The notes under the pieces were generated by a model. The model was not told where the DNA came from. It searched no databases and saw only the letters and a list, made by a program, of their open reading frames with translations. From NCBI GenBank assembly GCA_040753155.1, contig JBFMEU010000003.1, forward strand, positions 5,045-69,044: DNA of 64,000 bases, read 5' to 3'. The position numbers and the translations under genes are program-made. Below are positions 51,630-53,204 of the stretch, piece by piece. Position 1 is the stretch's first letter. Every line of letters starts with the position of its first letter. Source of the stretch: Bacillota bacterium (lineage in GTDB: Bacteria > Bacillota > Desulfotomaculia > Desulfotomaculales > JBFMEU01).

Positions 51630-53204
51630 CTAAAAACTTTTCCCGACATGCTCCGGGGCCGGCTGAGATTTTTCTTCGCGTTTTTTAATGATGGTATCTA
51701 TCCTTAGAATGGCCTCGGCAATTTCACCCGCCGCCTTCAAAGCATATATCTTAACCGGGGCCGGGTCGACAACCCCCGCCTCCAACATATCCGCTATATT
51801 TCCGGTGTCACAGTCCACGGCCAGGCTTTCCCGCCCGGTTTCCGCCTGGGCCGAAATTACGTCGCCTATTTTCTCCAGGGGATTGAACCCGGCGTTGGCC
51901 ACAATCTGGGACATGGGCCGCTTCAGGGCCTCAATGGCACAGTCCACCCCGTAGGCCGCCATGCCCCTGATCCCGGCCCGGGTTTGCTCCACCTCCCTGA
52001 CCACCGCCAGTTCCATGGCACCGCCCCCGGGCACAATGCCGCCCCTTACCGCAGCCTGCACCGAGGCCGCCGCATCTTTGGCAATGCGCTCCCGCTCACC
52101 AACCACTTCCGCCGTGGAGGCGCCCACCAGCACTGTGGCCATGGGCTTGCCGCCGCCGTCCAGCACCCAGACCTGCTCCAGCTTCTCATCGTTGTATACC
52201 CTGTCCGCCCGGCCCAGCCAGCCCCGGATTACTTCCAGGTCCCTCTTCAGGCCGGTGCGCTTGATCATCCTGGCACCGGTGTGCTCGGCAGCCTTTTGCA
52301 GCTCCCGGTGGGCCACCCGCTGCACAACCATGATGCCGGCGTCGGTGAGCATCTCCTCGGCTGTGTCATCAACACCGCGGTCCACCAGCACCAGGGCGGC
52401 GCCCAGGTCAATAATTTTTTGCACGTTCTTCCGAAACTGTCCCTGCAACTCCATGTAGCGGTTAAAACCGGCCTCGGTGGCCAGGGCCTCTTCCTCAATT
52501 TCCTCGGGCTCCAGGGCGTCATCAATCACCAGCACCCCTGCTTTCAGTACTTCCCCGGGCATCTGGCGGTTCATGCGCTCCTTATTAATAATCACGCCCC
52601 TGAATACCAGGTTTTCGGCGCCCTCCTCGGCCAGCACGGTGTCGGAAAACTTGAAGGACTGCTCAATCAGCTTTTCCCTGCCAATCAGCCGGGCCGCCTC
52701 AACCACCAGATCAGCTATATCATGGTGCTCACGCCCGGCCACCAGGGCCACCTGGCGCAGTACCGGATCAGTCATGTCCTCAACTGGGCGGGTCTTGGCC
52801 CGAATAACCTCCAGACCTCGCTGCACCCCCGCCTTAAGGCCCTCGATGACTCTGGCCACCGGCACCCCCCGGGCCACCTGCTCCACCCCGGCGCTCACCA
52901 TGGCCCCGGCCATAACGGTAGCCGTGGTGGTTCCATCGCCAATTTCATCCTGCTGGGCCCGGGCAACGTTAATCAGCATTTTGGCCGCCGGGTGGTTGGC
53001 CTCCATCATGGTCAGAATGGTAACCCCGTCATTGGTGATCACAACTTCACCAAACCGGTCCACCAGCATGGTATCCAGGCCCTTGGGCCCCAAAGTCCCC
53101 TCCACGGCGGCGGAAACCGCCCGGACGGCATTGGCGTTGGTCACCAGGGCCGCCATTTTCTCGTCGATATCAGCGCCGGCGCCGGTCTGCTGCTTCAGGC
53201 TCAA
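51630..53204 (-). CDS. thermosome-like (archaeal-type, group II/III) chaperonin, Cpn60/TCP-1 family
   Basis: 524 aa. Motifs [49 protein letters not shown] and [11 protein letters not shown] match thermosome/CCT signatures rather than GroEL. Confidence 0.9.
   Translation of the reverse strand: [524 protein letters not shown]

What the first reader, a model, noticed from the sequence alone, without database searches (positions are those of the whole stretch)
51630..53204. Archaeal-type (thermosome-like) chaperonin embedded between hrcA and grpE in the CIRCE-controlled dnaK operon
The 524-aa ORF carries thermosome/CCT signatures ([42 protein letters not shown].E), not GroEL signatures. It occupies the slot between hrcA (53219-54265, CIRCE at 54284-54310) and grpE-dnaK-dnaJ. 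Intergenic gaps are short (14 and 47 nt), so co-transcription under HrcA control is expected. Archaeal-like chaperonins inside the dnaK operon have been described for Carboxydothermus hydrogenoformans and a few other Firmicutes as a distinct chaperonin group. This is therefore rare but known, not new. It marks an inter-domain acquisition wired into a bacterial heat-shock regulon.
Basis: partly seen in the sequence, partly recalled or inferred. Interest (0 to 1): 0.7.

Follow-up and report, generated by a model that had tools for sequence, protein, structure and literature searches.

The report
Group III chaperonin in dnaK operon

Summary
The 524-aa ORF at 51630-53204 (-) is real. It lies 14 nt after hrcA and 47-56 nt before grpE. 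A perfect CIRCE operator (54285-54311) and a sigma-70-like promoter lie upstream of hrcA.

The protein belongs to the Group III (bacterial thermosome-like) chaperonins:
- It is 48% identical to the crystallised Carboxydothermus hydrogenoformans Ch-CPN (5X9U/5X9V) and 64% identical to the resurrected Group III ancestor (9RWQ). It is only about 30% identical to thermosomes and 27% to GroEL.
- It falls below every NCBIfam thermosome and GroEL cut-off.
- It groups with Ch-CPN, outside Group II, in 150 of 150 bootstrap trees.
- It has the Group III hallmarks: a shortened nucleotide-sensing loop with Arg158, a shortened two-helix lid, and the pivot Leu443.
- Its AlphaFold model matches 5X9V best.

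All 80 related genome loci show the same lepA-hrcA-cpn-grpE-dnaK-dnaJ-prmA order, with CIRCE and very short gaps. The arrangement is therefore the lineage norm, as published in 2010 and 2017, and the identical protein is already in NCBI.

Co-transcription under HrcA is inferred, not shown. The "inter-domain acquisition" origin remains disputed and cannot be settled here.

Verdict: confirmed, correctly interpreted, already known, low interest.

The parts
54324..54352 (-). Sigma-70-type promoter-like site: TTGACA (54352-54347), 17-nt spacer, TG-extended TATTTT (54329-54324), immediately upstream of CIRCE
   Evidence: 10 of 12 consensus matches, the joint best in the 10.6-kb region scanned. The sequence was read. 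A consensus match only; not shown to be functional.
54285..54311 (-). CIRCE operator (HrcA binding site), perfect inverted repeat TTAGCACTC-N9-GAGTGCTAA, 12 nt downstream of the -10 hexamer and 19 nt upstream of the hrcA ATG
   Evidence: 0 mismatches, the only hit in 64 kb, 0 of 100 shuffles with a hit. The same element (0-1 mismatch) lies upstream of hrcA in 75 of 80 related loci; the other 5 are cut by contig ends.
53219..54265 (-). hrcA, heat-inducible transcriptional repressor (348 aa)
   Evidence: Pfam HrcA 3.9e-67. TIGR00331 hrcA equivalog, 359.5 bits against a cut-off of 197.2.
53205..53219 (-). hrcA-cpn junction: Shine-Dalgarno AGGAGGA overlaps the last base of the hrcA stop codon, and 9 nt separate GGAGG from the TTG start
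   Evidence: Sequence read. The junction layout (stop, SD, TTG) recurs in relatives. Median gap is 13 nt in 78 loci, and 48 of 78 use TTG.
51630..53204 (-). Group III (bacterial thermosome-like) chaperonin gene, 524 aa, TTG start
   Evidence: see full report. The N-terminus is conserved from residue 3 (L3, K4 and E15 invariant in 34 homologues), which supports the TTG start.
51642..51657 (-). Weak terminator-like hairpin (5 bp, 4 GC) inside the last codons of cpn; judged not to be a real terminator
   Evidence: One search lists it among 16 terminator-like sites, against 11.9 +/- 3.3 expected by chance. Folding of 51560-51700 is no more stable than shuffles (z = -0.42).
51010..51582 (-). grpE (longest ORF 190 aa; probable true start GTG 51573, 187 aa)
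   Evidence: Pfam GrpE 9.3e-52. NF010738, 181 bits against a cut-off of 137. The 187-aa gene call appears on two other contigs carrying identical cpn.
49108..50985 (-). dnaK (Hsp70; longest ORF 625 aa, gene calls elsewhere 620 aa)
   Evidence: Pfam HSP70 9.5e-254..
47403..48518 (-). dnaJ (371 aa), separated from dnaK by a 589-nt spacer that holds a strong hairpin and a promoter-like site
   Evidence: DnaJ, DnaJ_CXXCXGXG and DnaJ_C domains. for the spacer.
44058..47338 (-). prmA, an rsmE-like RNA methyltransferase and an mtaB-like radical-SAM enzyme: the tail of the Bacillus-type heptacistronic dnaK operon
   Evidence: PrmA 5.8e-84; Methyltrans_RNA plus PUA_4; UPF0004 plus Radical_SAM.

Best explanation
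The ORF encodes a Group III chaperonin, the bacterial thermosome-like class whose prototype is Ch-CPN of Carboxydothermus hydrogenoformans.

By homology to the solved prototype, it should assemble into a double ring of 8+8 identical subunits. Each cavity would be closed by a built-in two-helix lid from the apical domain, so no GroES is needed. ATP would be bound and hydrolysed at the conserved equatorial site (D59, D90 in GDGTTT, D377). [quoted passage not shown] In Ch-CPN this goes with ring closure on ATP binding and little cooperativity.

The gene is a fixed, vertically inherited component of the hrcA-cpn-grpE-dnaK-dnaJ operon of this Desulfotomaculia-like Bacillota genome. It is most likely transcribed from the single sigma-70-type promoter upstream of hrcA. 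That promoter would be repressed by HrcA bound to CIRCE and de-repressed on heat or proteotoxic stress, so the chaperonin is made together with the Hsp70 system.

Shown here:
- family membership
- active-site and hallmark residues
- predicted fold
- operator and promoter sequence
- tight gene spacing
- universal synteny

Inferred:
- oligomeric state
- ATPase cycle
- co-transcription
- heat induction
- any hand-over of substrates from DnaK
For: Family membership:
- PDB sequence search gives 9RWQ (ACIII, the resurrected Group III ancestor according to PMC12696368) at 2.7e-202 and 5X9U/5X9V Ch-CPN at 1.5e-138. Archaeal thermosomes reach only about 1e-63.
- Identities are 64% to ACIII, 48% to Ch-CPN, 30-33% to thermosomes and 27% to E. 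coli GroEL.
- The best NCBIfam models are thermosome alpha/arch/beta at about 297 bits, below their cut-offs of 450, 671 and 400. GroEL models score 150-180 bits, also below cut-off. A close Ch-CPN relative, P0134, behaves the same way, whereas true Group II representatives pass.
- In NJ bootstraps the MRCA of the query and Ch-CPN excludes Group II in 150 of 150 replicates.

Hallmarks:
- The nucleotide-sensing-loop segment is 47 aa, against a Group II median of 54, with the deletion exactly where Ch-CPN has it.
- R158 equals Ch R155 (Arg in 31 of 33 Group III cluster representatives, never the majority residue in Group II).
- The lid segment is 81 aa, as in Ch-CPN, against 85 in Group II.
- L443 equals the pivot Leu439 of Ch-CPN.
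- The catalytic Asp residues are conserved.

Fold: the AF2 model has pLDDT 85 and pTM 0.80, with lid helices at 238-241 and 244-267. The best Foldseek PDB hits are 5X9V and 5X9U (TM 0.86/0.91), ahead of all Group II chains.

Operon:
- Promoter plus perfect CIRCE.
- A 14-nt gap with the SD overlapping the hrcA stop codon.
- No structure at the cpn-grpE junction beyond shuffles.
- Identical gene order in all 80 related loci, CIRCE in all 75 where the upstream DNA is present, and median gaps of 13 and 15 nt.
- GC3 like the neighbouring genes.

Literature: Group III genes lie in the dnaK operon "with one exception" (PMC5635000, PMC5220055) and are HrcA-regulated (PMC5904260, citing Techtmann and Robb 2010).
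Against: - No expression data exist, so operon structure and heat induction are inferred from sequence only.
- A weak promoter-like match (GTGACA-16-TATGTT, 51811..51784, 9 of 12) lies inside the cpn 3' end, about 200 nt before grpE. An internal start for grpE-dnaK is therefore not excluded.
- The tree is a simple NJ tree with Kimura-corrected distances. Monophyly of the wider thermosome-like assemblage that includes two divergent ~500-aa clades was weak (28 of 60).
- The AF2 alignment was shallow (34 sequences, at least 71% identical).
- Oligomer state and ATPase behaviour are extrapolated from a protein that is 48% identical.
- Presence of groESL elsewhere in the genome could not be checked.
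Confidence: 0.93

Rival explanations
1. It is a genuine archaeal Group II thermosome subunit recently acquired by horizontal transfer and inserted into the dnaK operon of this particular genome.
For: Thermosome models are the best-scoring NCBIfam families. The fold and built-in lid resemble Group II.
Against: - Scores are far below the thermosome cut-offs (297 against 400-671).
- Identity to thermosomes is only 30-33%, against 48% to bacterial Ch-CPN.
- The protein is excluded from Group II in 150 of 150 bootstraps.
- The Group II nucleotide-sensing loop is absent.
- The same gene occupies the same slot in all 80 related bacterial loci.
- GC and GC3 match the neighbouring genes.
Confidence: 0.01
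2. It is a divergent GroEL (Group I) paralogue that works with GroES.
For: The equatorial-domain motifs (GDGTTT, GGG, catalytic Asp) are shared with GroEL. GroEL models give partial hits of 150-180 bits.
Against: - GroEL hits are split into two partial stretches and fall below all cut-offs.
- Identity to E. coli GroEL is 27%.
- The apical domain carries a helical lid insertion that GroEL lacks (GroEL has a gap across the lid columns).
- All top structural matches are Group III and Group II.
- No groES is adjacent.
Confidence: 0.01
3. The gene is Group III, but it is not simply co-transcribed and co-regulated. Internal promoters, processing or attenuation would uncouple cpn levels from hrcA and from grpE-dnaK. 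A precedent is the Bacillus subtilis dnaK operon, which is reported to be processed between hrcA and grpE (recalled from memory, Homuth et al. 1999).
For: - A weak promoter-like site lies inside the cpn 3' end (51811..51784) and a weak hairpin lies at 51657..51642.
- A conserved weak TTG start occurs in 48 of 78 relatives, which suggests translation-level tuning.
- Further downstream, the dnaK-dnaJ spacer has a strong hairpin (-47.5 kcal/mol, z = -4.0) plus a U-run, and a promoter-like site. This shows that the long operon is probably not one uniform unit.
Against: - Promoter-like and terminator-like matches in the region are only modestly above shuffles (12 against 5.6 +/- 2.4, and 16 against 11.9 +/- 3.3), and these two are weak.
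- The junction RNA is no more structured than shuffles.
- Gaps of about 13-15 nt in most relatives leave no room for independent signals.
Confidence: 0.2
4. Evolutionary rival to the reader's "inter-domain acquisition": the Group III gene is a vertically inherited relic of the pre-LUCA or early chaperonin, not an import from Archaea.
For: - An et al. 2017 argue this from the deep branch, the distinct mechanism and thaumarchaeal relatives (PMC5635000).
- The gene here is compositionally native.
- It is syntenic across Desulfotomaculia, Negativicutes and Carboxydothermus-like genomes, which implies long residence.
Against: - The 2025 ancestral-reconstruction study and Rebeaud 2021 favour an ancient archaeon-to-Firmicute transfer (PMC12696368).
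- Distribution is restricted to a subset of bacteria that all also keep GroEL (PMC5220055).
- My tree is unrooted with respect to this question.
Confidence: 0.3

Closest known systems
Ch-CPN, the Group III chaperonin of Carboxydothermus hydrogenoformans (PDB 5X9U open, 5X9V closed; An et al. 2017, PMC5635000; Techtmann and Robb 2010)
   Same: - 48% identity over about 500 residues with almost no indels.
- Same shortened nucleotide-sensing loop with Arg, same lid length and same pivot Leu.
- Best structural match, TM 0.86/0.91.
- Same genomic slot in the dnaK operon with HrcA/CIRCE control (PMC5635000, PMC5904260).
   Different: It is a different lineage, with closest named relatives Desulfofundulus, Desulfotomaculum copahuensis and Pelotomaculum at 76-80% identity. 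The residue after the Arg is Glu rather than Gly. The C-terminal tail differs. Nothing is mechanistically distinct.
[quoted passage not shown] The PDB molecule name reads "Ancestral Group II Chaperonin (ACII)", but the paper assigns 9RWQ to ACIII.
   Same: It is the best PDB sequence hit, at 2.7e-202 and 64% identity. It forms a double 8-mer ring and is ATPase-active according to the paper.
   Different: It is a reconstructed sequence, not a natural protein.
Archaeal thermosome / Group II chaperonins (for example T. acidophilum 1A6D, Thermococcus KS-1 1Q3R, M. maripaludis 3KFB)
   Same: Same three-domain fold with a built-in helical lid, and no GroES (TM about 0.8). The ATP-site motifs are shared.
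   Different: - Only 30-33% identity.
- Fails the NCBIfam thermosome cut-offs.
- Lacks the extra 6-8 residues of the nucleotide-sensing loop and its Lys.
- The lid is 4 residues shorter.
- Bacterial host and dnaK-operon context.
- No prefoldin partner in bacteria (PMC5635000).
GroEL/GroES (Group I)
   Same: Homologous equatorial ATPase domain. Both are under HrcA/CIRCE control in Firmicutes (PMC5904260).
   Different: 27% identity. GroEL forms 7-mer rings and uses a detachable GroES lid. The gene here has a built-in lid and no adjacent groES.
Bacillus subtilis heptacistronic dnaK operon hrcA-grpE-dnaK-dnaJ-yqeT(prmA)-yqeU(rsmE)-yqeV(mtaB), preceded by lepA (established knowledge, recalled)
   Same: Same gene order, same strand, sigma-A-type promoter plus CIRCE upstream of hrcA, with lepA upstream.
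   Different: The window has the chaperonin inserted between hrcA and grpE. It has no hemN/hemW-like gene between lepA and hrcA.

Membership tests
Group III chaperonin (bacterial thermosome-like) | Falls in the monophyletic clade containing Ch-CPN, distinct from Group I and Group II | tested here: met
   NJ tree of 77 sequences: the MRCA of the query and Ch-CPN excludes Group II in 150 of 150 bootstraps, and excludes the other divergent clades in 144 of 150. PDB scores are 466-676 bits to Group III entries against 219 bits or less to thermosomes. Caveat: distance method only.
Group III chaperonin (bacterial thermosome-like) | [quoted passage not shown] | tested here: met
   The order hrcA-cpn-grpE-dnaK-dnaJ is on one strand with gaps of 14 and 47-56 nt. 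The order is identical in all 80 related loci.
Group III chaperonin (bacterial thermosome-like) | Nucleotide-sensing loop shortened by about 6 residues relative to Group II, with a conserved Arg (Ch R155) contacting the gamma-phosphate | tested here: met
   The segment is 47 aa, against a Group II median of 54. The gap falls after VAGREH, exactly as in the Ch-CPN-like sequence. R158 aligns with R155, and Arg occurs in 31 of 33 Group III representatives.
Group III chaperonin (bacterial thermosome-like) | Built-in lid with deletions relative to Group II, made of two helices (Ch residues 223-263) | tested here: met
   The lid segment is 81 aa, equal to the Ch-like sequence, against 85 in Group II, with 3-residue and 1-residue deletions. 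The AF2 model shows helices 238-241 and 244-267 at pLDDT 83-95. The best fold match is 5X9V.
Group III chaperonin (bacterial thermosome-like) | Inter-ring pivot joint Leu (Ch L439) | tested here: met
   L443 aligns with it. Leu occurs in 26 of 33 Group III representatives.
Group III chaperonin (bacterial thermosome-like) | Homo-hexadecamer (two 8-membered rings); ATP-binding-driven closure with a Hill coefficient of about 1 | not testable with these tools
   Known for Ch-CPN (PMC5635000) and ACIII (PMC12696368). Only a monomer model was made here.
Group II chaperonin (thermosome/CCT) | Passes the curated thermosome/CCT family models | tested here: not met
   Scores of 297, 296 and 296 bits against cut-offs of 450, 671 and 400; all CCT models are far below cut-off. 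Control Group II representatives pass.
Group II chaperonin (thermosome/CCT) | Long nucleotide-sensing loop with a conserved Lys | tested here: not met
   The loop is deleted, and an Arg on the shortened loop takes its place.
Group I chaperonin (GroEL) | Passes the GroEL family models; no built-in lid; adjacent groES | tested here: not met
   GroEL models score 146-180 bits against cut-offs of 352-582, in two partial stretches. A lid is present. There is no groES or groEL in the window.
HrcA/CIRCE (class I heat-shock) regulon | CIRCE inverted repeat TTAGCACTC-N9-GAGTGCTAA between the promoter and the first gene | tested here: met
   A perfect match lies at 54285-54311, 12 nt after the -10 hexamer and 19 nt before the hrcA ATG.
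HrcA/CIRCE (class I heat-shock) regulon | Cognate HrcA repressor encoded | tested here: met
   TIGR00331 scores 359.5 bits against a cut-off of 197.2.
HrcA/CIRCE (class I heat-shock) regulon | Heat-inducible, HrcA-dependent transcription reading through cpn | not testable with these tools
   This needs RNA data. Sequence evidence (short gaps, no terminator) is consistent with it.

The most novel reading that the evidence does not exclude
The chaperonin may be more than a passenger in the operon. Its start codon follows the hrcA stop by about 13 nt, with the SD overlapping the stop, and a weak TTG start is conserved in 48 of 78 relatives.

This layout could mean that cpn translation is coupled to hrcA translation. 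The Group III chaperonin, rather than or in addition to GroEL, might then be the chaperone that keeps HrcA active, acting as the feedback sensor of the CIRCE regulon. Alternatively or additionally, it might be the dedicated downstream folding chamber for DnaK/DnaJ clients.

Neither role has been tested in the literature I could search (PMC5635000 says DnaK-interaction experiments were "in progress").
Probability: 0.15. Interest if true: 0.5.

Novelty: already known. Interest (0 to 1): 0.15.

Why it matters
As a finding it adds nothing new. Group III chaperonins in the dnaK operon were described in 2010, solved structurally in 2017 and resurrected as ancestors in 2025, and this exact protein is already deposited and annotated in NCBI.

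The general topic still matters. Group III chaperonins bear on how GroEL-type and thermosome-type folding machines diverged, and their in-vivo role alongside GroEL and DnaK is still unknown.

The survey done here is a small useful by-product: 80 of 80 loci are syntenic, the gaps are very short, the TTG start is conserved and CIRCE is perfect. This shows that the arrangement is fixed across Desulfotomaculia and Negativicutes, and it gives a clean basis for testing DnaK or HrcA coupling in a cultivable relative.

Tried and rejected
1. Intrinsic terminator between cpn and grpE. The only candidate (51657..51642) is a 5-bp hairpin inside the coding sequence, and the region folds no better than shuffles. 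Rejected.
2. A second CIRCE, or another Cpn60/GroES gene in the window. None was found.
3. Recent horizontal transfer signal. GC and GC3 of cpn equal those of the neighbours. No signal.
4. An Rfam family in the operon or its spacers. None; only RNase P and four tRNAs elsewhere in the window.
5. Reading Techtmann and Robb 2010 directly. The paper is not held by DOI or by PMC id, so its claims are cited second-hand from PMC5635000, PMC5220055 and PMC5904260.
6. Monophyly of a wider "Group III sensu lato" that includes two divergent ~500-aa clades from the representative search. Support was weak (28 of 60), so no claim is made about those clades.
7. Checking for groESL elsewhere in the same genome. 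Not possible, because only this window and two short contigs carrying the protein are accessible.
8. A deep MSA for AlphaFold. Representatives from the 50%-identity library are not accepted by that tool, so a shallow alignment was used. The model was still confident (pLDDT 85).
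Full report
**Observation**

The minus strand of 51630-53204 holds an intact 524-codon ORF that starts with TTG. Three quoted motifs are present: [20 protein letters not shown] and VPGGGAMEL.

- Pfam gives Cpn60_TCP1 at 1.2e-107 over residues 31-509.
- Immediately upstream is hrcA at 53219-54265. It scores 359 bits on TIGR00331 against a cut-off of 197.
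- Downstream on the same strand are grpE, dnaK and dnaJ. They are followed by prmA, an rsmE-like methyltransferase and an mtaB-like radical-SAM gene. lepA and spoIIP lie upstream.
- This is the Bacillus-type heptacistronic dnaK operon with one extra gene.

The hrcA-cpn gap is 14 nt. The Shine-Dalgarno AGGAGGA overlaps the last base of the hrcA stop codon, and 9 nt separate GGAGG from the TTG. The cpn-grpE gap is 47 nt to the longest-ORF start. It is 56 nt to the GTG at 51573, which has a proper SD and is the start used by gene calls on two other contigs that carry the identical chaperonin.

It is unique in the window, and no shuffle of 100 produced a match. Directly upstream is the joint best sigma-70-like match of the region: TTGACA, 17 nt, then TG-extended TATTTT at 54352..54324.

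**What the protein is**

Sequence comparison with solved structures separates three tiers:

| Tier | Match | Score |
|---|---|---|
| 1 | 9RWQ | 2.7e-202 |
| 1 | 5X9U/5X9V | 1.5e-138 |
| 2 | ACII (9RWP) | 285 bits |
| 2 | archaeal thermosomes | about 1e-63 (219 bits or less) |
| 3 | CCT subunits | below the thermosomes |

- 5X9U/5X9V is the Carboxydothermus hydrogenoformans Group III chaperonin (PMC5635000).
- 9RWQ is the resurrected ancestor of Group III (ACIII) according to PMC12696368, although its PDB molecule name says ACII.

NCBIfam's best models are the thermosome models at about 297 bits, well below their cut-offs of 450, 671 and 400. GroEL models give only split partial hits of 146-180 bits, also below cut-off. 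A close relative of Ch-CPN from the representative library (P0134, 87% identical to 5X9U) behaves identically. Four representatives of the large neighbouring clade pass the thermosome cut-offs and so label that clade as Group II.

I built a neighbour-joining tree from 77 sequences rooted on E. coli GroEL. The set comprised:
- the query
- 50%-identity cluster representatives from an exhaustive HMMER search
- Ch-CPN
- ACIII
- a Group II sample

The last common ancestor of the query and Ch-CPN excludes Group II in 150 of 150 bootstraps. The Group II sample is monophyletic in 148 of 150. Identities are 64% to ACIII, 48% to Ch-CPN, 30-33% to thermosomes and 27% to GroEL.

**Hallmark features**

An et al. 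2017 define Group III by four properties: a missing (shortened) nucleotide-sensing loop with Arg155 replacing the Group II lysine, a lid with deletions built from two helices, an inter-ring pivot Leu439, and location in the dnaK operon. In the alignment:

- The query has the loop deletion at exactly the Ch-CPN position (VAGREH / HDIADL). The segment is 47 aa, against a Group II median of 54.
- Arg158 sits in the Arg155 column, where Arg occurs in 31 of 33 Group III representatives.
- The lid segment is 81 aa, identical in length to the Ch-like sequence, against 85 in Group II.
- Leu443 sits in the pivot column.
- The catalytic and Mg/ATP aspartates (GroEL D52, D87 and D398) are conserved as D59, D90 and D377, and the GGG motif is conserved at 393-395.

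An AlphaFold2 model built from a 34-sequence alignment is confident (pLDDT 85, pTM 0.80). It shows a helix-helix protrusion at 238-267. Foldseek against the PDB ranks 5X9V and 5X9U first (TM 0.86/0.91, 47% identity), ahead of all Group II chains at TM about 0.75-0.82. Every Group III feature that can be tested in silico is met. The Group II and Group I membership tests fail.

**Context and regulation**

A scan of one genome per GTDB species with six query-derived peptide patterns found 177 confirmed loci, of which 80 were fetched. The titles are mostly Pelotomaculum, Desulfofundulus, Desulforamulus, other Desulfotomaculia or Peptococcaceae, Thermincola, Ammonifex, and Negativicutes or Selenomonadales.

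- In every locus, the genes present before the contig ends are in the order lepA-hrcA-cpn-grpE-dnaK-dnaJ-prmA on one strand.
- A CIRCE with 0 or 1 mismatch lies upstream of hrcA in 75 loci (72 perfect). The remaining five are truncated at or within hrcA.
- The hrcA-cpn gap has a median of 13 nt (n = 78), with several 4-nt overlaps. The cpn-grpE gap has a median of 15 nt (n = 77).
- In the window, the cpn-grpE junction RNA is no more stable than shuffled sequence (z = -0.42).
- The one terminator-like site is a 5-bp hairpin inside the last codons of cpn.

The best-supported model is therefore a single HrcA/CIRCE-controlled transcript that runs at least from hrcA to dnaK. This is what the literature states for the family (PMC5904260, PMC5220055). 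It remains an inference here.

A weak promoter-like match lies inside the cpn 3' end (51811..51784). Further downstream, the 589-nt dnaK-dnaJ spacer holds a strong hairpin (-47.5 kcal/mol, z = -4.0) followed by a U-run, plus a promoter-like site. The operon may therefore be subdivided or processed, so I give 0.2 to a more complex transcription pattern around or after cpn.

**Mechanism**

By homology to Ch-CPN, the protein should form a 16-mer of two stacked 8-rings. It should bind non-native proteins in the open state and close its own lid on ATP binding, without GroES and with little cooperativity (PMC5635000). Its synthesis should rise with DnaK, DnaJ and GrpE when HrcA is inactivated by stress. 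Substrate hand-over from DnaK has been proposed but not shown (PMC5635000, PMC5220055). A full-text search for later work on Group III chaperonins found only reviews and the 2025 ancestral-reconstruction paper.

**Origin**

One is an ancient archaeon-to-Firmicute transfer (Techtmann and Robb 2010 and Rebeaud 2021, as cited in PMC12696368). The other is a relic close to the ancestral chaperonin (PMC5635000). My data show only long residence: universal synteny and native composition, with GC3 of 0.75 against 0.66-0.76 for the neighbours. They cannot root the tree.

**Novelty and verdict**

- The identical protein is already in NCBI as [quoted passage not shown].
- Named relatives at 76-80% identity include Desulfofundulus thermobenzoicus, Desulfotomaculum copahuensis and Pelotomaculum thermopropionicum.
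- The family, its operon position, its regulation and its structure are published.
- The finding is real and correctly interpreted, but already known and typical of its lineage. Interest is low (0.15).
- The only mildly new observations are quantitative: 80 of 80 loci syntenic, about 13-nt coupling to hrcA, and a TTG start in 48 of 78 loci. These motivate the speculative reading that the chaperonin is stoichiometrically tied to HrcA or DnaK function (probability about 0.15).

**Limitations**

- The tree uses a distance method.
- The AlphaFold alignment is shallow.
- Techtmann and Robb 2010 could not be read.
- Presence of groESL elsewhere in this genome could not be checked. There is none in the 64-kb window.

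Noticed in passing
window 25327-25360, 31419-31462, 46319-46369, 48594-48651, 58521-58571 (all + strand): A dispersed intergenic repeat has a conserved core, TTTCGCTGGTTTTCTCATT, followed by a variable tandem array of 3.6-5.9 heptamers (CTGACTY) and then CTGAGTAGTTAC. There are four core copies at 1 mismatch or fewer (0 expected by chance), plus a more degenerate fifth. All are in the same orientation, antisense to the surrounding genes. The element is absent from the 80 related loci and has no Rfam match. It may be a genome-specific REP/MITE-like element or a small-RNA or terminator module.
   Followed up: partly
window 48519-49107 (dnaK-dnaJ spacer): The non-coding spacer is unusually long at 589 nt. 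It contains one copy of the repeat above, a second tandem repeat (ATTCAGGTATTCAGA, 48555-48585), a very stable hairpin at about 48664-48716 (-47.5 kcal/mol, z = -4.0) followed by UUUU, and a promoter-like GTGACA-17-TAAAAT at 48795..48767. It suggests termination or attenuation after dnaK and a separate start for dnaJ-prmA. In relatives the dnaK-dnaJ gap varies from about 25 to 980 nt by tblastn match ends.
   Followed up: partly
window 53202-53204 and loci L001-L080: The chaperonin start codon is TTG in the window and in 48 of 78 related loci (ATG in 27, GTG in 3). ATG dominates in Negativicutes and TTG in Pelotomaculum and Desulfotomaculum relatives. In most loci the SD sits on or next to the hrcA stop codon.
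   Followed up: partly
proteins P0150 (1057 aa) and P0184 (1047 aa) from the representative search: Two proteins about twice the normal length match the chaperonin in two stretches, with the best stretch in the C-terminal half. They may be tandem-fused thermosome-like chaperonins.
   Followed up: no
proteins P0165, P0166, P0174, P0180, P0181, P0187, P0194, P0195, P0196 and P0164, P0183: Two further clades of ~500-aa thermosome-like proteins are 27-35% identical to the query. The members scanned (P0165, P0195, P0183) fall below the NCBIfam thermosome and GroEL cut-offs. In the NJ tree they branch beside Group III but outside both the Ch-CPN clade and Group II. Some (P0165, P0195) have GEG instead of GGG in the ATP-site motif. 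Their taxonomic origin is unknown.
   Followed up: no
PDB entry 9RWQ: The PDB molecule name for 9RWQ reads "Ancestral Group II Chaperonin (ACII)". The paper's data-availability statement and its Fig. 5 assign 9RWQ to ACIII, the Group III ancestor. The sequence similarity to the query fits ACIII.
   Followed up: yes
window 7983-8348 (-) and 11686-12103 (-): A bacterial RNase P class B RNA (121.8 bits) and a cluster of four tRNA genes were found. Class B RNase P fits a Bacillota origin.
   Followed up: no
window 54266-56148: There is no hemN/hemW-like gene between lepA and hrcA, unlike the B. subtilis lepA-hemN-hrcA arrangement (the latter recalled from memory). Here lepA ends 83 nt before the hrcA start, and the promoter and CIRCE fill that gap.
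   Followed up: no
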